Of a stretch of 64,000 nt of DNA, positions 1,754 to 61,455 are shown piece by piece. How positions within the stretch are numbered: the stretch's first letter is position 1; every line of letters begins with the position of its first letter. The DNA is from a virus. Where the stretch lies: the IMG/VR virus record IMGVR_UViG_3300045988_072631. The stretch is one strand, 5' to 3'. Position numbers and translations under genes: made by a program. The notes under the pieces are model-generated. The model saw nothing but the letters and a program-made list of their open reading frames with translations. It was not told the origin of the DNA and did no database searches.

Positions 1754-4570
1754 TTGCTTTTTGAAAGTGGAGGTGCTTTTCTATTGGCATCTGAAAATCT
1801 GAAACAAACAATCCAAGGATACGAAAATTATATACAGTCGCATGGAATAGACGAAACAGTCATTGAGGCATACGTAGAAGCCTGTTCCGTGGCTATAAAT
1901 AATGAAAAGGATACAGAATATGGCTTGCAACTTACAAGGCGGTCTAAAGAGCTTATAGAACGTTACTGCATGAAGCAGACCGGTGGGACGATCTGGGATC
2001 TGGAAAAATATGCGTTTGCAAATAAAACAAGCTATGATCTGATTGACAAATTCCATTCAGTATTGCTTTTGGAAGCACAAAACAAGGTGGTTGACAGCTT
2101 TTTCCGGTATATTGAGCATAAGCGAGAACCTAAAGAACGGTTCTACATGCCACGAAGGAAACAATTTTTGAAAATTGGTCTGGTGGATGCTCTACAGGGA
2201 ATGATTGATGACAAGTACGACATTTTGTGCATTAGCCTTATTCCCGGTGCCGGGAAAGCTGGAAAGATGTCGTCTAAAGTCCTAACACCAAGTGGATTCA
2301 TTGAAATGCGTGATGTAAAGGTTGGAACAAAAGTTGTGGCCGGAGACGGAGAAAAAGCGTCTGTTATTGGAGTATATCCACAAGGGAAACGCCGAATATA
2401 CAGAATTACAATGAATGACGGAGGCTTTACAGAAGTTTCAGATAATCACTTATGGGAAGTACAAAATCGGTGTGATAGACAATTTGAAACAAGGACGGGA
2501 AATCATAGAACAAGAATAATAAAAACGGAAGATATGCTTAAAGATTTTATTATTGAAAAAGACGGAAGGAAAAACTATTCTATAGACTATGTTCCCGAAA
2601 TTAAATCCTTTGAAGAAAAAAAGTTTTATATACACCCGTATCTTCTTGGATGCTTATTGGGAGATGGTGGATTAAGTACAAAAACAATTTGCTTTACAAA
2701 AAAAGATAAAGAAATAGTTGAAAAAATCAATTCACTCATTGGCGGATATGAGTTTGTCCTAAAACATGGAAGTGATAAAGATTATTATTTGCGCTCTAAA
2801 TATGCTGCAAAAAAGCCCAACCTATTAAAAGAGGAACTAAATAGATTAGGCCTTCTTGGTACAAAATCTGCTACAAAATTTATACCAGAAGAATATCTAT
2901 ATTCAAGTCATGAACAAAGATTGTGGCTATTACGTGGATTGTTAGATACAGACGGATACGCAGAATACAAGGGAATAGAATATTCAACAGCTTCTCAAAA
3001 ACTTGCGGAAAATGTAACAGAATTAGTACGTTCTTTGGGAGGATATGCGAGCTTAACAAAACGGAAATCTGGGTACAGAGACAAGGACGGCAATAGTGTT
3101 TCGTGCCTTGATAACTATAGGATTACAATTTTGTTTAGTGCAAATCATGATAATCCATTTTGGTTAGAGAGAAAAGCTAAAATATATAATCCAAAACGCA
3201 AGGTTTGGAAACGTTATATAAAAAATATTGAGTATGTAGGAGAAGAAGAGTGCCAGTGTATTATGATTGATAATCCTTGCCATTTGTACATTACAGATGA
3301 TTACATTATTACTCACAATACTACCATTGAAAAATTCTTTAATGCTGCGGTAATTGGCTGGTATCCGAAAGACTTCAATCTGTTTTATTCCCATAGTGGC
3401 GATATTACCAGAATGTACTATGACGGTATATATGATATAGTTACTAATTCAGATGAATATGCGTGGAATGAGATTTTCCCTGATTTGTATGTGACAAGCA
3501 CAAATGCAAAGACAGAACAGTTCAACGTAGGAAAATATAAGCCGTTTCCATCTGTACAGTGCACATCTGTAGGAAGCAAAAATGCGGGTAAAGTCCGTGC
3601 TTCTAAGTTTCTGCTGGTTGATGATATGATTGGCGGTATCGAGGAAGCATTGAATCCGGCTATACTTGAAAAGTTGTGGAGTAAGTATTCCGTAGATGCA
3701 CGCCAAAGAAAAATCAAAGATACTGATGGTAAGAATTGTAAGGAAATACACATTGCAACCAGATGGAGTGTCCAGGATGTCATAGGGCGTATCCAAAAAA
3801 TGTATGAAGGTAATCCGAGGGTAAAGGTAATTGCTGTTCCTGATGTTGATCCGGTAACTGGACAGAGCAATTTTGATTATGAATTTTCCGGGTTCGATGT
3901 GGAGTTCTTTGAAGATCAGCAACTTTTGATGGATGAAATATCCTACAAGTGTCTGTACAAACAGGAACCGATCGAGCGTGAAGGACTGCTATTCCCGGAT
4001 GATAAGATCAGGAGATATTTGAATCTTCCGCATGGCACACCAGAGCTTATCACAGCACAGTGCGATACAAAGGGTAAGGGAACGGACTATTTTGTTCTTC
4101 CAGTCCTGCAAAAGTACGGTGATGATTATTACTGCGTGGATGCCGTGTGCGATAATACTGCCGATTATGAGATGCAGTATGAGAATGCTGCTAACATTTT
4201 GGTAAATAACGAGGTGCAGGAATGCGAGTTTGAGCGGAATGCTGGCGGTGATCGGGTGGCAATGGAAGTCAATAAACGTGTTGAGTCTAAAGGCTGGATT
4301 TGCAACATCACCGATACACCTACAGAGACAAACAAGGAAGCAAGAATCTTCCAGTGCTCTAGCTGGATTTTACAGCATGTGATTTTCAAAGACCCATCAA
4401 AGTACAAGCCGAATGAACCGTATGGAATAATGATGTCGTTGCTGAAACAGTATTCGGTATCCGGCAAAAAGCAACTTGATGATGTGCCAGATGTGTTTTC
4501 TAACTTTGCATTAAGGATAAACAAAGGAGTTGCAAAACGGCACACAACAATTATGTCAAGCCCGATTTAA
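1754..4570 (+). CDS. terL: terminase large subunit, interrupted by an intein
   Basis: 938-aa ORF. The exteins give Walker A PGAGK/T, Walker B FLLVDDMIG, ATRWS and a nuclease-like C-terminal half. TTG start at 1754 or 1784 (GGAGG at 1769-1773). The portal gene follows. Confidence 0.9.
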   Translation: MLFESGGAFLLASENLKQTIQGYENYIQSHGIDETVIEAYVEACSVAINNEKDTEYGLQLTRRSKELIERYCMKQTGGTIWDLEKYAFANKTSYDLIDKFHSVLLLEAQNKVVDSFFRYIEHKREPKERFYMPRRKQFLKIGLVDALQGMIDDKYDILCISLIPGAGKAGKMSSKVLTPSGFIEMRDVKVGTKVVAGDGEKASVIGVYPQGKRRIYRITMNDGGFTEVSDNHLWEVQNRCDRQFETRTGNHRTRIIKTEDMLKDFIIEKDGRKNYSIDYVPEIKSFEEKKFYIHPYLLGCLLGDGGLSTKTICFTKKDKEIVEKINSLIGGYEFVLKHGSDKDYYLRSKYAAKKPNLLKEELNRLGLLGTKSATKFIPEEYLYSSHEQRLWLLRGLLDTDGYAEYKGIEYSTASQKLAENVTELVRSLGGYASLTKRKSGYRDKDGNSVSCLDNYRITILFSANHDNPFWLERKAKIYNPKRKVWKRYIKNIEYVGEEECQCIMIDNPCHLYITDDYIITHNTTIEKFFNAAVIGWYPKDFNLFYSHSGDITRMYYDGIYDIVTNSDEYAWNEIFPDLYVTSTNAKTEQFNVGKYKPFPSVQCTSVGSKNAGKVRASKFLLVDDMIGGIEEALNPAILEKLWSKYSVDARQRKIKDTDGKNCKEIHIATRWSVQDVIGRIQKMYEGNPRVKVIAVPDVDPVTGQSNFDYEFSGFDVEFFEDQQLLMDEISYKCLYKQEPIEREGLLFPDDKIRRYLNLPHGTPELITAQCDTKGKGTDYFVLPVLQKYGDDYYCVDAVCDNTADYEMQYENAANILVNNEVQECEFERNAGGDRVAMEVNKRVESKGWICNITDTPTETNKEARIFQCSSWILQHVIFKDPSKYKPNEPYGIMMSLLKQYSVSGKKQLDDVPDVFSNFALRINKGVAKRHTTIMSSPI
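2258..3319 (+). mobile_element. intein with LAGLIDADG homing-endonuclease domain inserted in the terL P-loop (candidate class 3)
   Basis: Block A KVLTPSGFIEMRDV, block B SDNHLW, two LAGLIDADG motifs (LLGCLLGDGG, LLRGLLDTDGY), C-terminal IITHN followed by T. The N boundary is ambiguous (2258 or 2267) within the GAGKAGK duplication. Confidence 0.8.
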
Positions 4571-36616: not shown

Positions 36617-37216
36617 ATGAGTAAAGCATTGGATATGGCAAGAGAACTGGTTAAGAAGCTGGAAGAAGAGGAAAAACAGCCAAAAGTGCAGCTTTTAACT
36701 TTGAATCCGGGAAATGTATTCAAAATTGGAGAGCATGATTTTATTGTACTGATGCAGTGCAGAGAGGAAACAGCAGTAATTTCCAAAGGATTCATGGCTG
36801 AAAATGTGAAATTTGATGAGGATTCGAGAAACTATAAAGAGTCAAATCTGAAAAAGGTTATCGAGAATCTGATCCAGCCGGTTATTGAGAAGGAAGTCGG
36901 ATCAAAAAACCTTATTGAGCATGAGGTTGATCTGACAAGTGTAGATATGCAGGATGAGTTCGGAGGATTCAAGTGCAAAGTCAGACCAATCACATTCGAA
37001 GAAGCCAGACTGTACAACAATTTACTGGTTAATAAAAACCTTAATGATTGGTGGTGGACATGCACACCTTGGAGCACAGAAGACAGAGGATGGAAATATT
37101 CAATTGCCGTTGTTGCTCCGTCCGGCCTTATCAACGACAACTATTTCAGCAACTGCTACGGTGTTCGCCCGTTTTGTATCTTAAAATCTAATATCTTTGT
37201 ATCGAAGGGAGAATGA
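36617..37216 (+). CDS. DGR target protein 1 (C-type-lectin-fold variable C-terminus)
   Basis: C-terminus WWWTCTPWS...VVAPSGLINDNYFSNCYGVRPFCI contains VR1. Confidence 0.8.
   Translation: MSKALDMARELVKKLEEEEKQPKVQLLTLNPGNVFKIGEHDFIVLMQCREETAVISKGFMAENVKFDEDSRNYKESNLKKVIENLIQPVIEKEVGSKNLIEHEVDLTSVDMQDEFGGFKCKVRPITFEEARLYNNLLVNKNLNDWWWTCTPWSTEDRGWKYSIAVVAPSGLINDNYFSNCYGVRPFCILKSNIFVSKGE
37107..37180 (+). repeat. DGR variable region VR1
   Basis: The 74 nt align to TR with 11 differences, 10 of them at TR adenines. Confidence 0.85.
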
Positions 37217-37857
37217 AAATGGGATTAACAATGAAAGCATTGCAGGAACAGATTGATGTGTTAAAAAAAGAAATGGAAGAGCTGAGAAGCGGCCAGAAAG
37301 TAGAATGCAACAAGAAATTTTCCAAATTTCTTACTATTGGTGAAACATTTGAACTGGCAGGAGTTAATTGGAAGATTATTGATATCACGAGTGATGGTTA
37401 TGTTTGTCTGTCTGATTCTATAGGTGAAATGAAATTCAGCTCTGAAAACAATGACTGGAGAACCAGCAATCTTCGAAAATATTTGAATGAAGAATTTTTG
37501 AAAAAGATGGAATCAGAAATCGGGACAGGTAATCTGATCAAATTTGAGAGAAGCCTTCTTTCTTTGGACGGTCAGACGGAGTACGGAACATGTGATGATA
37601 AAGTTTCACTTTTGACAGTGGATGAGTACCGGAAATACAGAAAGCTCATTCCAAATACAGACGATTGGTTCTGGTTGATTTCTCCGTGGAGTACACCTTG
37701 CAATGGCTTCAACAACAGTGTTACCGTTGTTGCTCCGTCCGGCAATATGCCTTCAACTACGGCGGTTACTACGGCCGCTGCGGTGTTCGCCCGTTCTGTA
37801 TCTTTTCTTCTGCAATCTTTGAATCAGAGGAAAAATAAATGCCAGAAACAGAACTGA
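37213..37857 (+). CDS. DGR target protein 2, frame-shifted inside its variable region
   Basis: Paralog of target 1 (WFWLISPWS...VVAPSG). A 5-nt duplication in VR2 shifts the frame. The ancestral frame ends at TAA 37836-37838. Confidence 0.7.
   Translation: MKMGLTMKALQEQIDVLKKEMEELRSGQKVECNKKFSKFLTIGETFELAGVNWKIIDITSDGYVCLSDSIGEMKFSSENNDWRTSNLRKYLNEEFLKKMESEIGTGNLIKFERSLLSLDGQTEYGTCDDKVSLLTVDEYRKYRKLIPNTDDWFWLISPWSTPCNGFNNSVTVVAPSGNMPSTTAVTTAAAVFARSVSFLLQSLNQRKNKCQKQN
37724..37802 (+). repeat. DGR variable region VR2 (79 nt, carries a 5-nt duplication)
   Basis: Positions 1-25 correspond to TR 1-25. Positions 26-79 correspond to TR 21-74 with adenine-specific changes. Confidence 0.8.
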
Positions 37858-38210
37858 AAGTAATTCTGAAAGCAAAAGATCTGGCAGCGCATACTTTGAG
37901 AGTGACATCGAATTGCAACCGGTATCCTAAAAAGTATAGATTTTCATTGGTGGACAAGATGCAGAATAAAGCACTTGAAATTTATGAATATTTGTACGAA
38001 GCCAACCGGACAGATTTGAAAAATTTTAAAAAGGAGCGATCAGAGTTACAGACAAAAGCAATCACAAATTGCGATGAATTGTTGTTTTATATCGAATTAT
38101 CAATGAAACTTAATATTATCAGCATGGAAAGCACGGAGTATTGGTCGAAAATGGTGTCCGATATAAAACATATGGCGATTGCATGGAGAACCAAAGATAA
38201 AGGACGATAA
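37839..38210 (+). CDS. avd: accessory variability determinant (Avd, four-helix bundle)
   Basis: 123 aa, basic and helical, lying between the targets and TR/RT. Confidence 0.75.
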   Translation: MPETELKVILKAKDLAAHTLRVTSNCNRYPKKYRFSLVDKMQNKALEIYEYLYEANRTDLKNFKKERSELQTKAITNCDELLFYIELSMKLNIISMESTEYWSKMVSDIKHMAIAWRTKDKGR

Positions 38211-38235
38211 AATTATAGGTTATGCGCTGTTTAAA

Positions 38236-38309
38236 CCGTTGTTGCTCCATCCGGCAATATCAACAACAACAATTACAACAACAGCAACGGTGTTCGCCCA
38301 TTCTGTATC
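38236..38309 (+). repeat. DGR template repeat (TR)
   Basis: A-rich AAC-codon tract (..AATATCAACAACAACAATTACAACAACAGCAAC..) matching both VRs. Confidence 0.85.
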
Positions 38310-38407
38310 AAACAGGCAGTTAGAGTAGGCAATAAGCCGAAATCAGAGAAAGATACAAAAAAGTGCATGACCTTCTCGAATAGGGTAAATACAAAGGAAT
38401 TTTTACA

Positions 38408-39430
38408 ATGGATAAAGATGTTATATGCAGCTATGAAAATCTGTATAAGGCATACCGGAAGGCTAAAACTGGAAAAGGTTTTAATGGAAGCTGTGCAAAA
38501 TTTCAGACTATGAATCTGGAAGGACTTCACTTATTGAAAGAACAACTGGAAAATCAGACATACCGGTTGAATCCGTACAACGAATTTAAGGTTTACGAAC
38601 CGAAAGAAAGAGTGATTAAATCGTGTTCTTTCAAAGACAAAATCGTCCAACATTGCTTATGCGACGAGATTTTGCATCCTGCATTAAGGGATCGCTTTAT
38701 TAGTACGAATTATGCAGGGCAGCAGGGGAAAGGTACTCATTTTGGAATGGATTGCTTGAAAGAGCAAATGATTGATTTTTATGAAGAACATAGACTTGAT
38801 GGCTGGATTCTTAAATGTGACATTAAAAAGTTTTTCTACCAGATAGACCATGAGATCCTGAAAAGAATTGTTGACTATCACTTTCCAGATGAGTACACCA
38901 AATGGTTGAATCACCTGTTTATTGAAAGCACAGAAGGTCTGGGGCTTCCACTCGGGAATCAGGTAGCTCAGGTATATGCACTTCTGATGCTAGATGGTAT
39001 GGATCACTTCATTACCGAAACACTTGGAATATCCAGATATGGAAGATACATGGATGATTTCTATTTGATCTATCCAGATAAAGAGTATTTGATGTTTTGT
39101 CTAAAACAGATCCGAGAATTTCTTGGAAGGCTGGAACTTGAATTGAATGGAAAGACACAGATTGTCCCATTCAAATGCGGAATAGCATTTACAGGTTTTC
39201 ATCACTACGTAACATTGGAAGGAAAATACATAAGAAAATTGAGTGGAACAAACAAACGAAAGATGCGTAAGAAAATCAGGAAATGGTCAGAACTGGTTAG
39301 ATCCGGGAAAATGACGGAAGAAAAATTTTTTGAGAAGTACAACGCTTGGAAAAACCATGCATTACATGGGAATTGCATTAAGTTGTGCCACTCGATGGAT
39401 TTATATGTAAAAGAATTATTGGAGGAATAA
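38408..39430 (+). CDS. DGR reverse transcriptase
   Basis: 340 aa. CDIKKFFYQIDH, LPLGNQVAQ, RYMDDFYLIY (YMDD). Confidence 0.85.
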   Translation: MDKDVICSYENLYKAYRKAKTGKGFNGSCAKFQTMNLEGLHLLKEQLENQTYRLNPYNEFKVYEPKERVIKSCSFKDKIVQHCLCDEILHPALRDRFISTNYAGQQGKGTHFGMDCLKEQMIDFYEEHRLDGWILKCDIKKFFYQIDHEILKRIVDYHFPDEYTKWLNHLFIESTEGLGLPLGNQVAQVYALLMLDGMDHFITETLGISRYGRYMDDFYLIYPDKEYLMFCLKQIREFLGRLELELNGKTQIVPFKCGIAFTGFHHYVTLEGKYIRKLSGTNKRKMRKKIRKWSELVRSGKMTEEKFFEKYNAWKNHALHGNCIKLCHSMDLYVKELLEE

Positions 39431-41500: not shown

Positions 41501-41938
41501 ATCAATAAAGTAATTTTAACAGGTAGATTCGCGAAAGACCCTGACGTTAGATACTCAAACGGAGAAAAGACAACTGCGGTTGCGAGATTTACTCTGGCAG
41601 TAGAACGAAGATTCAAAGGTGATGGAAATCCGACGGCTGATTTTATCAACTGTGTAGCATTCGGAAAATCCGGGGAGTTTATCGAAAAATACTTCCGCAA
41701 AGGTATGAAAGCTAATATTTGTGGACGGATTCAGACCGGCTCTTATACGAATAAGGACGGAAACAAGATCTACACCACAGATGTTCTGGTGGAAGAAATT
41801 GAGTTTGGTGAAAGCAAAAGCAGCAATCAGCAGAGCGCAGCTCCGGCTAATCCAAGTAATGCAGTTAATCCAATGACTGATGAAAATGGTTTCATGAACA
41901 TCCCAGATGGAATTGATGAAGAGTTACCGTTTGCGTGA
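41501..41938 (+). CDS. ssb: single-stranded DNA-binding protein (no canonical start codon)
   Basis: INKVILTGRFAKDPDVRYS...DEELPFA*. The frame opens after TGA 41495-41497. The first plausible codon is ATC 41501, 8 nt after AAAGGTGG. Confidence 0.7.
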   Translation: MNKVILTGRFAKDPDVRYSNGEKTTAVARFTLAVERRFKGDGNPTADFINCVAFGKSGEFIEKYFRKGMKANICGRIQTGSYTNKDGNKIYTTDVLVEEIEFGESKSSNQQSAAPANPSNAVNPMTDENGFMNIPDGIDEELPFA

Positions 41939-41954
41939 TAAAGAGGGTGAGAAA

Positions 41955-42659
41955 ATGAAAAAATTTGAACTTACAGCAGAATGCGTAACAAATATTTTTG
42001 GAAAAAAATTATTCAGAATCAAAGCACTGGTAGCATTTGAAAATGTGAAAGAAGGAGATCTGGGCGGATTCGTGGAGAAAGAATCTAACCTCGCTAATAG
42101 CGGTAAAGCATGGGTTTGCGGTGATGCACAGGTCTACGGTGAAGCACAGGTCTCTGGTAATGCACAGGTTTGCGGTGATGCACAGGTCTACGGTGAAGCA
42201 CAGGTCTACGGTAATGCACAGGTTTGCGGTAATGCACGGGTCTGCGGTAATGCACGGGTCTACGGTGAAGCATGGGTCTACGATAATGCACGAGTCTACG
42301 ATAATGCACGGGTCTACGGTGAAGCACAGGTCTACGGTGAAGCACAGGTCTACGGTGATGCACAGGTCTACGGTGATGCACAGGTCTACGGTAATGCATG
42401 GGTTTGCGGTAATGCACGGGTCTCCGGTGATCTGGATTATGCAATTGTTGGAGGTTTTGGAAGTGAGCAGCGGACAACTACATTTTTCCGGCAGAAGGAC
42501 GGAACAGTAGGAGTGAGGTGCGGATGCTTTTACGGAACACTGGAAGAATTCAGGGGAAAAGTTAAGAAAACGCACAAAGACAGCAAATACGGACAGGAAT
42601 ACCTGATGATTGCAGATCTGATGGAATTACATTTTGCAGGAGGAAAAGAGAATGAATGA
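41955..42659 (+). CDS. hexapeptide-repeat (beta-helix-like) protein
   Basis: 18 tandem G[DEN]A[QRW]V[YCS] units followed by a Cys-containing globular C-terminus. Confidence 0.6.
   Translation: MKKFELTAECVTNIFGKKLFRIKALVAFENVKEGDLGGFVEKESNLANSGKAWVCGDAQVYGEAQVSGNAQVCGDAQVYGEAQVYGNAQVCGNARVCGNARVYGEAWVYDNARVYDNARVYGEAQVYGEAQVYGDAQVYGDAQVYGNAWVCGNARVSGDLDYAIVGGFGSEQRTTTFFRQKDGTVGVRCGCFYGTLEEFRGKVKKTHKDSKYGQEYLMIADLMELHFAGGKENE
42102..42425 (+). repeat. 18 tandem 18-bp coding repeats
   Basis: GGTGAWGCACAGGTCTAC-type units. All six frames are open across it. Confidence 0.9.
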
Positions 42660-61051: not shown

Positions 61052-61181
61052 ATAACGCACATATACAGCAAAAACAATATGGAATAATTCACAAAATAAC
61101 GCACATATAGCAATAAAATATGTGCAATATATATAACGCACATATAACCATTGACAATATAACGCACTTATGATATTATAA
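61052..61181 (+). promoter_or_regulatory. iteron-rich promoter region (ATAACGCACWTAT x4, TTGACA-17-TATTAT)
   Basis: Copies at 61052, 61096, 61133 and 61159, plus an inverted partial copy at about 61118. Segment 61133-61181 is repeated exactly at 61407-61455. Confidence 0.65.
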
Positions 61182-61212: not shown

Positions 61213-61410
61213 ATGAGCGAACCGAAAACATCAGCGGCACAAAGAAAAGCCGTTAGAGAGTACGAAAAAAACAACTATAGATTGAACATAGTATTCCCGA
61301 AGGGCACAAAAGAGCGGATTGAAGCACTAAACCTTGAAAAAACAAATTCCGCATTTATTCGAGATACTGTAATATCAAAACTTGATGAACTCGAAAAAAT
61401 TCTAAAATAA
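61213..61410 (+). CDS. RHH/Arc-like small DNA-binding protein
   Basis: RKAVREYEKNNYRLNIVFPKGTKERIEAL. N-terminus paralogous to 61954-62475. Confidence 0.55.
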   Translation: MSEPKTSAAQRKAVREYEKNNYRLNIVFPKGTKERIEALNLEKTNSAFIRDTVISKLDELEKILK

Positions 61411-61455
61411 CGCACATATAACCATTGACAATATAACGCACTTATGATATTATAA
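61407..61455 (+). promoter_or_regulatory. second exact copy of the 49-bp promoter/operator
   Basis: ATAACGCACATATAACCATTGACAATATAACGCACTTATGATATTATAA is identical to 61133-61181. Confidence 0.7.

What the first reader, a model, noticed from the sequence alone, without database searches (positions are those of the whole stretch)
2258..3319. Intein in the terL Walker-A loop lacks an N-terminal nucleophile and shows a WCT-like (class 3) signature
Removing about 351-354 codons restores a P-loop (PGAGK|TT or PGAGKAGK|TT). The boundary falls in a GAGK/AGK duplication, so the first intein residue is Ala or Met rather than Cys or Ser. Block B reads SDNHLW, placing Trp two residues after the conserved His. 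The block F region reads CQCIMIDNPCH, with a Cys at or next to the position normally held by Asp. Block G reads IITHN, with Thr preceding His-Asn, and the +1 residue is Thr. Together these match the Trp/Cys/Thr signature described for class 3 inteins, which splice through an internal Cys. Two LAGLIDADG motifs indicate an intact homing endonuclease.
Basis: partly seen in the sequence, partly recalled or inferred. Interest (0 to 1): 0.65.

Follow-up and report, generated by a model that had tools for sequence, protein, structure and literature searches.

The report
Class 3 intein in phage terminase

Summary
Window 2258-3319 encodes a 354-aa intein inside terL (ORF 1754/1784-4570). More than 100 intein-free TerL alleles (95-98% aa identity) and Dulem virus 39 read SLIPGAGK|TTIEKFF, so residue 1 is Ala, the last residue is Asn and +1 is Thr.

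The class 3 signature is complete: Ala1, His64 (B:10), Trp66 (B:12), Cys334 (F:4, the second Cys of CQC), Thr352-His353-Asn354 (G:5-7) and Thr+1. In a 61-member family alignment His64, Cys334, Thr352, His353 and Asn354 are invariant. Among solved mini-inteins, the best sequence and fold matches are the class 3 MchDnaB1 and MsmDnaB1 inteins and gp41-1. The AF2 model (pLDDT 95) is a HINT domain plus a PI-SceI-like LAGLIDADG endonuclease.

The intein looks active and mobile. dN/dS is 0.07. An identical TerL occurs on 12 metagenome contigs. The intein has low GC3. The same intein sits in a much more divergent terL.

Tori et al. (2010) already reported class 3 inteins in phage terminase large subunits and said most class 3 inteins sit in ATPase P-loops. 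Cultured phages (FishSpeaker, N1M2, MetMV) carry homologues at the same TerL site. Verdict: a new member of a known kind, of low interest.

The parts
1784..2257 (+). terL N-extein: the N-terminal part of the ATPase domain, ending in the Walker A residues PGAGK. The ORF may start at TTG 1754 or TTG 1784; database gene calls give 938 and 928 aa.
   Evidence: It is 95-98% identical to intein-free 574/577-aa TerLs. PHROG terminase large subunit hits appear.
2258..3319 (+). Intein of 354 aa, from Ala1 to Asn354: a HINT splicing domain split by a LAGLIDADG homing endonuclease.
   Evidence: It is absent, to the exact codon, from intein-free alleles. The AF2 model has pLDDT 95 and pTM 0.93. Foldseek matches PI-SceI and TliVMA inteins over the full length and MchDnaB1/MsmDnaB1 for the HINT part.
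2258..2260 (+). Intein residue 1 = Ala (GCT), a non-nucleophile that directly follows the Walker A Lys.
   Evidence: In the family, residue 1 is Ala 53, Glu 5, Ser 2 and Cys 1 of 61.
2438..2455 (+). Block B, S61-D-N-H64-L-W66: His at B:10 and the class 3 Trp at B:12.
   Evidence: His64 is invariant in 61/61 and Trp66 is present in 58/61.
2636..2674 (+). LAGLIDADG motif 1 (PYLLGCLLGD136GGL).
   Evidence: Pfam LAGLIDADG_3 and Hom_end hits. Gly131 and Gly137 are invariant, and Asp136 is conserved in 53/61.
2918..2959 (+). LAGLIDADG motif 2 (RLWLLRGLLD230TD232GY).
   Evidence: Asp232 is invariant, Asp230 is present in 59/61, and Lys207 upstream is invariant.
3248..3292 (+). Block F, ECQC334IMIDNPCHLYI. 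Cys334 (nt 3257-3259) is the F:4 residue and the predicted initiating nucleophile.
   Evidence: Cys334 and Ile335 are invariant in 61/61. The block aligns with VRC(124)VEVDNPAHLY of the class 3 MchDnaB1 intein.
3305..3319 (+). Block G, I-I-T352-H353-N354: the class 3 Thr at G:5, the penultimate His and the cyclising Asn.
   Evidence: Thr352, His353 and Asn354 are invariant in 61/61.
3320..4570 (+). terL C-extein. It begins with Thr+1 (nt 3320-3322, the Walker A Thr) and continues through a Walker B-like motif (FLLVDD) and the RNaseH-like nuclease domain.
   Evidence: In the family, +1 is Thr 55 and Ser 5 of 60.

Best explanation
The feature is a functional class 3 intein with a LAGLIDADG homing endonuclease. 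It is inserted between the Lys and the Thr of the Walker A motif (PGAGK|T) of the large terminase of a temperate gut phage, probably one infecting Lachnospiraceae.

Protein level (inferred from homology with the MP-Be DnaB, MsmDnaB1 and MchDnaB1 inteins):
1. The thiol of Cys334 (block F:4), helped by His64 and Trp66 of block B, attacks the Lys(-1)-Ala1 peptide bond. This gives a block-F thioester branched intermediate.
2. The N-extein is passed to the hydroxyl of Thr+1.
3. Asn354 cyclises, assisted by His353, and releases the intein.
4. An O-to-N acyl shift restores the native Lys-Thr bond, and with it an intact P-loop and an active packaging ATPase.

DNA level (inferred): the endonuclease domain cuts intein-free terL alleles at the P-loop coding sequence (CCNGGNGCCGGGAAA|ACNACNATYGARAAA) during co-infection or a phage-prophage encounter. 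The intein is then copied in by double-strand-break repair (homing).

Shown here: the exact boundaries, all signature residues and their family-wide invariance, the two-domain fold prediction, purifying selection, and horizontal distribution. Inferred: the chemistry and the endonuclease activity.
For: Boundaries: fixed by intein-free alleles.

Signature: the full WCT triplet plus Ala1, Thr+1, His64, His353 and Asn354 is present. His64, Cys334, Thr352, His353 and Asn354 are invariant in a 61-sequence family alignment; Trp66 is in 58/61 and +1 is Thr or Ser in 60/60.

Solved structures: the best sequence matches are gp41-1(WCT) 6RIZ, MchDnaB1 6RIX/6RIY and the class 3 MsmDnaB1 6BS8. Block F aligns CQCIMIDNPCHLY with VRCVEVDNPAHLY. 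Those DnaB1 inteins also follow GK and begin with Ala.

Fold: the AF2 model has pLDDT 95. Foldseek gives PI-SceI and TliVMA over the full length (TM 0.64-0.77) and MchDnaB1/MsmDnaB1 for the HINT part (target TM 0.73-0.80).

Activity:
- dN/dS is 0.068 between this intein and its copy in L003: 0.059 in the splicing domain and 0.069 in the endonuclease domain.
- An identical TerL precursor occurs on 12 metagenome contigs, 8 of them 50-200 kb. TerL is essential and its P-loop is interrupted, so a circulating phage implies splicing.

Mobility:
- Intein GC3 is 0.243 against 0.416 for the extein.
- The inteins are 85.5% nt identical while their exteins are 73.6% identical, with saturated synonymous sites.
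- 119 of the 120 closest TerL clusters lack the intein.
- A second, 48%-identical family member sits at the same site in a Lachnospiraceae MAG terL.

Precedent: Tori et al. 2010 found class 3 inteins in DnaB, RecG, SNF2 and phage TerL, mostly in P-loops. The Bethlehem gp10 TerL class 3 intein splices and its endonuclease cuts.
Against: There is no biochemical evidence for this intein. The sequence signature predicts the mechanism but does not demonstrate it.

Beyer et al. 2020 showed that grafting WCT onto a class 1 intein is not enough for splicing, so the triplet alone is not proof of competence.

Pfam HINT models do not reach their thresholds here (Hom_end_hint E=0.017, below the gathering score). 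The HINT assignment therefore rests on PDB sequence matches and the predicted fold.

No clear co-conversion tract was seen next to the insertion site, so recent homing into this particular allele is not directly visible.

Residues 2-4 (GKM) depart from the family consensus QPL. The consequence of this is unknown.
Confidence: 0.88

Rival explanations
1. A class 1 intein whose true first residue is Ser5 or Ser6 (nt 2270-2275). It would splice by the canonical N-O acyl shift and leave AGKM(S) in the P-loop.
For: Two serines lie 4-5 residues into the insert. Ser6 is the commonest residue at that position in the family, 45/61.
Against: All intein-free alleles read PGAGK|TT with no extra residues. 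Ser6 is replaced by Ala, Glu, Val, Cys or Thr in 16/61 relatives, whereas Cys334 is invariant. The block A register matches class 3 DnaB1 inteins, which start with Ala right after GK.
Confidence: 0.02
2. A degenerate, non-splicing intein remnant in a defective prophage, with terL inactivated.
For: No experimental data exist. Grafting WCT alone is insufficient for splicing. The N-terminal residues 2-4 are atypical for the family.
Against: The ORF is intact, and every catalytic and near-invariant family residue is present. dN/dS is 0.07 in both domains. An identical allele appears on 12 independent contigs, 8 of them of near-genome length. The window carries a complete set of phage modules.
Confidence: 0.05
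3. An intein with a class 2-like mechanism: Thr+1 attacks the N-terminal junction directly, as in KlbA inteins, and Cys334 plays only a structural or coordinating role.
For: Residue 1 is a non-nucleophile, as in class 2. Position F:4 has a coordinating role in other inteins.
Against: Class 2 inteins lack the WCT triplet by definition, and this intein has it. In the class 3 prototype the F:4 Cys is absolutely required, and N-terminal cleavage occurs without Thr+1. The family-wide invariance of Cys334 fits a nucleophile.
Confidence: 0.05

Closest known systems
Mycobacterium smegmatis / M. chimaera DnaB1 (DnaB-b) class 3 inteins (PDB 6BS8, 6RIX, 6RIY)
   Same: They are inserted after the GK of a P-loop. 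They start with Ala and carry the WCT triplet, THN at the C-terminus and DNPxHLY after the F:4 Cys. They are the closest solved mini-intein structures by sequence and by fold for the HINT part.
   Different: They are mini-inteins with no endonuclease, sit in a bacterial replicative helicase, and have Asp rather than Ser at B:7. Sequence identity is only about 25-30% in the aligned N-terminal segment.
Mycobacteriophage Bethlehem DnaB intein (class 3 prototype) and Bethlehem gp10 TerL1-c class 3 intein
   Same: They are phage-borne, about 340 aa, and carry a LAGLIDADG endonuclease, the WCT triplet and Thr+1. For these inteins the block-F Cys nucleophile, the splicing and the endonuclease activity were shown experimentally.
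   Different: The prototype starts with Pro and follows Gln. TerL1-c sits in a poorly conserved helix of a Terminase_1-type TerL in actinophages, not at the GK|T site of this TerL family.
Homologous inteins in the TerL Walker A of cultured phages: Shewanella phage FishSpeaker, Klebsiella phage N1M2 and Methanosarcina virus MetMV
   Same: Same family, 33-39% identity. The architecture is the same, (G/S)GK|AQ(P/S)L...HLW...QCI...HN|T, including the LAGLIDADG domain, in annotated terminase large subunits. PHROG TerL families 19299, 36964 and 15 include such inteins.
   Different: The exteins are unrelated or only distantly related. Residues 2-4 follow the family consensus Q(P/S)L, where this intein has GKM.
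gp41-1 intein (class 1, cyanophage-like; PDB 6QAZ, and the WCT-grafted form 6RIZ)
   Same: It is the best PDB sequence match to the N-terminal splicing half (E=2.5e-9) and has Thr at G:5.
   Different: It is a class 1 intein with Cys1 and Asp at F:4. The WCT-grafted version does not splice.
PI-SceI / TliVMA homing-endonuclease inteins
   Same: The overall two-domain architecture (HINT plus LAGLIDADG endonuclease) is the same, with TM 0.64-0.77 over the full length.
   Different: They are class 1 inteins (Cys1) in V-ATPase subunits, with 16-18% identity.

Membership tests
Class 3 inteins (Tori et al. 2010) | No Cys/Ser/Thr nucleophile at intein residue 1 | tested here: met
   Residue 1 is Ala. 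The boundary is fixed by intein-free alleles reading PGAGK|TT.
Class 3 inteins (Tori et al. 2010) | Trp at block B position 12 (two residues after the B:10 His) | tested here: met
   S-D-N-H64-L-W66. Trp is present in 58/61 relatives and His64 is invariant.
Class 3 inteins (Tori et al. 2010) | Cys at block F position 4 | tested here: met
   Cys334 is invariant in 61/61 and aligns with the catalytic Cys of MchDnaB1 (VRCVEV).
Class 3 inteins (Tori et al. 2010) | Thr at block G position 5 | tested here: met
   Thr352 is invariant in 61/61.
Class 3 inteins (Tori et al. 2010) | [quoted passage not shown] | tested here: met
   Thr+1, which is also the Walker A Thr. In the family it is Thr 55 and Ser 5 of 60.
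Class 3 inteins (Tori et al. 2010) | Splicing through a block-F thioester branched intermediate, with an obligate F:4 Cys | not testable with these tools
   This needs expression, C334A/S, N354A and T+1A mutants, and thiol-lability assays.
Inteins in general (HINT fold, precise excision) | HINT fold, C-terminal Asn (with penultimate His), and an in-frame insert absent from orthologues at a conserved site | tested here: met
   The AF2 model has pLDDT 95. Foldseek matches PI-SceI, TliVMA, MchDnaB1 and MsmDnaB1 inteins. H353-N354 are present. The 354-codon insert is exactly absent from 119 of the 120 closest TerL clusters. Pfam HINT models themselves fall below threshold.
LAGLIDADG homing endonucleases (double-motif, intein-associated) | Two LAGLIDADG helices, each ending in a catalytic acidic residue, in an alpha-beta-beta-alpha-beta-beta-alpha core | tested here: met
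   Pfam LAGLIDADG_3 E=5e-12 and Hom_end E=7e-6. Asp136 and Asp232 are present, and Asp232 and Lys207 are invariant. Foldseek matches I-DmoI and PI-SceI. dN/dS of this domain is 0.069. Cleavage activity was not tested.
Phage terminase large subunit | N-terminal Walker A/B ATPase plus a C-terminal RNaseH-like nuclease, encoded next to the portal gene | tested here: met
   Pfam Terminase_6C and Terminase-T7_RNaseH-like hits. PHROG 38 terminase large subunit at E=1e-43. The spliced Walker A is PGAGKT, and a Walker B-like FLLVDD motif is read directly from the sequence. SPP1-type portal and MuF genes lie downstream.

The most novel reading that the evidence does not exclude
The intein may be a conditional switch rather than only a parasite. 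Block F carries three cysteines (C332-x-C334 plus C341, ECQCIMIDNPCH), and the CxC pair is conserved in 52/61 family members. A disulfide or a bound metal involving the nucleophile Cys334 could hold TerL as an inactive precursor under oxidative or metal stress. Genome packaging would then be gated post-translationally in an anaerobe-infecting phage. This would parallel the Cys48-Cys118 redox trap of the class 3 MsmDnaB1 intein. Nothing here tests it. The evidence only shows that the cysteines exist and that Cys332 is largely conserved.
Probability: 0.07. Interest if true: 0.5.

Novelty: new member of a known kind. Interest (0 to 1): 0.2.

Why it matters
For annotation, terL here should be read as a 574-aa mature terminase plus a 354-aa class 3 intein, not as a 928-aa protein.

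Biologically, the finding adds a gut Lachnospiraceae-type temperate phage to the hosts of a very large, mostly unannotated family of class 3 inteins. These inteins hop between P-loops of TerL, PhoH, AAA+, RecA-like and DnaC-like ATPases.

The population picture is useful. One intein-bearing cluster sits among about 120 near-identical intein-free TerL clusters, the same intein occurs in a 74%-identical terL, and a second family member occupies the same site. This offers a natural system for studying intein homing dynamics in gut phages.

The finding does not change what is known about splicing mechanisms.

Tried and rejected
- The Met-1, 351-codon boundary and the Ser5/Ser6 class 1 reading were rejected using intein-free alleles and the family alignment.
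- I looked for a co-conversion tract next to the insertion site. Mismatch density near the junction (about 12-13%) is only slightly above the gene-wide 9-11% against intein-free alleles. The flanks of the two intein-bearing alleles are not clearly more alike than the rest of the gene. There is no usable signal.
- The AGK|AGK repeat as a target-site or recent DNA duplication was rejected. All three codons differ at the third position. Close relatives have AGR, ASR or ALS at residues 1-3. It is best read as coincidence within a variable stretch.
- Pfam HINT and Intein_splicing models gave no hit above threshold. The HINT assignment had to come from PDB sequence matches and fold search.
- Tori & Perler 2011 (J Bacteriol 193:2035) could not be read. 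The supplementary tables of Tori et al. 2010 are not held. I therefore could not check whether a TerL GK|T class 3 intein is individually listed there. The main text states that class 3 inteins occur in phage TerL and that most are in P-loops.
- Model coordinates are not returned by the structure tool, so the distance from Cys334 to the scissile bond could not be measured.
Full report
**What is there**

The window carries a long + strand ORF (TTG 1754 or TTG 1784 to the stop at 4570; 938 or 928 aa). It reads ...DILCISLIPGAGK AGKMSSKVLTPSGFIEMRDV ... ECQCIMIDNPCHLYITDDYIITHN TTIEKFFNAAVIGW....

The flanks are a terminase large subunit:
- PHROG 38 at E=1e-43, and Pfam Terminase_6C and T7-type RNaseH-like nuclease domain hits.
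- An SPP1-type portal gene and a MuF gene lie directly downstream.

The middle part hits Pfam LAGLIDADG_3 (E=5e-12) and Hom_end (E=7e-6). It hits HINT only weakly (Hom_end_hint E=0.017, below threshold).

**Boundaries**

The terminase of Dulem virus 39 (lemur faeces, PP511791) is 80% identical over the exteins and reads SLIPGAGK-TTIEKF, with a clean 354-residue gap opposite window 2258-3319.

A search with the conceptually spliced extein returned 120 listed clusters at 95-98% identity. Of these, 119 are 574-587 aa and intein-free. One, of 928 aa, is the window's own protein.

Nucleotide alignment with five such alleles puts the insert exactly between ...GCCGGGAAA and ACNACN.... The C-terminal residue must be the Asn before Thr+1, so there is no register ambiguity. 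Residue 1 is Ala (nt 2258-2260), the intein is 354 aa, and the ligated product is PGAGK-TT.

**Class 3 signature**

Block by block:
- Block B is S61-D-N-H64-L-W66, with His at B:10 and Trp at B:12.
- Block F is E-C-Q-C334-I-M-I-D-N-P-C-H-L-Y, with the F:4 Cys being the second Cys of CQC.
- Block G is I-I-T352-H353-N354, followed by Thr+1.

A search with the intein found 272 homologues, with E-values down to 2e-148. In the register of the query, nearly all of them show (G)K|A-Q-P-L-x-S-K-V-L-T-P-x-G ... H-L-W ... C-Q-C-I ... T-H-N|T.

In a 61-sequence alignment of full-length members:
- His64, Cys334, Ile335, Thr352, His353 and Asn354 are invariant.
- Trp66 is present in 58/61.
- Residue 1 is Ala 53, Glu 5, Ser 2, Cys 1.
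- The -1 residue is Lys in 49 and Arg in 7 of 60.
- +1 is Thr 55, Ser 5.

These are the criteria of Tori et al. 2010 (PMC2807308) and Kelley et al. 2016 (PMC5050341).

**Comparison with solved structures**

By sequence, the best PDB matches are gp41-1 (6RIZ is the WCT-grafted form; 6QAZ), then the class 3 MchDnaB1 (6RIX/6RIY) and MsmDnaB1 (6BS8) inteins. HMMER aligns CQCIMIDNPCHLY to VRCVEVDNPAHLY. These DnaB1 inteins also follow a P-loop GK and begin with Ala: the N-extein is SVGK and the cloning primer encodes GK-ALALD.

An AlphaFold2 model built on the family alignment is confident (mean pLDDT 95, pTM 0.93). Foldseek places the whole protein with the endonuclease-bearing inteins TliVMA and PI-SceI (query TM 0.64-0.77). 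It places the HINT part with MchDnaB1, MsmDnaB1 and gp41-1 (target TM 0.73-0.80), and the insert with I-DmoI-type LAGLIDADG enzymes.

Both LAGLIDADG motifs keep their acidic residues. Asp136 is conserved in 53/61 and Asp232 is invariant. Lys207 is also invariant.

**Is it alive?**
- A second full-length copy of the same intein (89% aa, 85.5% nt identity) sits in another terL (L003/P0256). dN/dS between the two copies is 0.068: 0.059 in the splicing parts and 0.069 in the endonuclease part.
- A TerL precursor identical to the window's, apart from the start-codon residue, is recorded on 12 contigs. Eight of them are 50-200 kb, which is near-genome length for a phage of about 60-68 kb.
- The Walker A loop of an essential packaging ATPase is interrupted. 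A phage genome found repeatedly therefore argues that the intein splices. This is an inference.

**Is it mobile?**
- Intein GC is 0.341 and GC3 is 0.243, against 0.411 and 0.416 for the exteins.
- The two intein copies are 85.5% nt identical (dS 0.81). Their exteins are only 73.6% identical, with saturated synonymous sites (pS 0.87). The inteins therefore share a more recent ancestor than their host genes.
- Among the closest TerL clusters the intein is rare, 1 of 120.
- A different member of the same family (48% aa identity, starting AQPLYSKVLTP) occupies the same site in a 76%-identical terL of a Lachnospiraceae MAG.
- I saw no clear co-conversion tract.

**Context**

The window matches JGI metagenome 3300029887, contig Ga0245331_1000379 (68 kb).

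It looks like a temperate phage. It has an integrase, a Cro/C1-type repressor, a Bro/ANT antirepressor, a C5 methylase, an SbcC-like ATPase, a RecT-like protein and a diversity-generating retroelement.

Related intein-free terL genes lie in a Lachnospira intestinalis isolate genome and in Lachnospiraceae and Faecalimonas MAGs. Some are also in Bacteroidaceae MAG bins. The host is probably a Lachnospiraceae member, but this is not certain.

**Comparison with what is known**

- Mycobacteriophages: Kelley et al. describe class 3 TerL inteins and showed splicing and endonuclease activity for one of them, Bethlehem gp10. They also call the Lys|Thr site the "classic" P-loop intein insertion.
- Actinophages: a 2025 preprint counts 287 class 3 inteins, mostly in TerL and Cas4.
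- Cultured phages outside the actinophages carry homologues of this very family at the same TerL site: Shewanella phage FishSpeaker (MGAGK|AQSL...THN|TF), Klebsiella phage N1M2 (RQSGK|AQPL...THN|TV) and Methanosarcina virus MetMV (RRSGK|AQPL...THN|TV).
- Three PHROG terminase families contain the intein within their profiles.

The element is therefore a new, unannotated member of a well-described kind.

**What is mildly unusual**

Residues 2-4 are G-K-M where 50/61 relatives have Q-P-L. The intein therefore starts with AGK, repeating the extein's AGK. The codons differ at every third position, and close relatives have AGR, ASR or ALS. I read this as coincidence.

Block F has three cysteines. 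The CxC pair is family-wide, in 52/61. Whether this supports redox or metal control of splicing, as in MsmDnaB1, is open.

**Verdict**

The mechanism is inferred by homology. Novelty is low.

Noticed in passing
window 36617-39430: A diversity-generating retroelement. The reverse transcriptase (Pfam RVT_1, E=2e-16) is at 38408-39430. An A-rich template repeat lies at about 38236-38309. Two variable repeats lie at the 3' ends of adjacent ORFs 36617-37216 (VR1, about 37107-37180) and 37213-37857 (VR2, about 37730-37810). In the core, the differences fall almost entirely at template adenines.
   Followed up: partly
homologues P0045, P0054, P0059, P0066-P0075 etc. (PhoH) and P0098, P0106, P0118 (CHAP-domain proteins): The same class 3 intein family also occupies non-P-loop sites. 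One is a second PhoH site...FMRGR|A...THN|TL/TF. Another is an ...IEGN|A...THN|TG/TS site in proteins with a CHAP domain (PF05257). The family spans TerL, PhoH, AAA+ (PF00004), RecA-like (PF00154), IstB/DnaC-like (PF01695) and AAA_24 exteins. Almost none of these proteins is annotated as containing an intein.
   Followed up: no
L014 (Lachnospiraceae MAG JAZUQL010000041.1) 2-2476: A terL 76% identical in the exteins carries a different member of the intein family (48% aa identity, PGTGK|AQPLYSKVLTP...THN|TT) at the identical Walker A site. The site has therefore been invaded by at least two diverged lineages within this TerL family.
   Followed up: partly
window 2246-2266: The last three N-extein residues (AGK, GCC GGG AAA) are repeated as the first three intein residues (AGK, GCT GGA AAG). 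All third codon positions differ. The family consensus at intein residues 1-4 is AQPL.
   Followed up: yes
window 42047-42496 (ORF 41907-42659): About 25 tandem 18-nt (hexapeptide) repeats lie inside a 250-aa ORF that matches the YdcK beta-solenoid repeat (E=1e-20), with a sub-threshold match to bactofilin.
   Followed up: no
window 61133-61181 and 61407-61455 (degenerate third copy at 61070-61118): An exact 49-nt direct repeat, ATAACGCACATATAACCATTGACAATATAACGCACTTATGATATTATAA. It contains TTGACA and a TATTAT-like hexamer, plus an internal ATAACGCAC(A/T)TAT repeat. It looks like duplicated promoter/operator units in an intergenic region.
   Followed up: no
window 1754-1786: The terL start is ambiguous. 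The longest ORF starts at TTG 1754 (938 aa). Intein-free homologues and most gene calls correspond to a start at TTG 1784 (928 aa, MASENLK...). Both versions are present in the protein collection (P0241 and P0127).
   Followed up: partly
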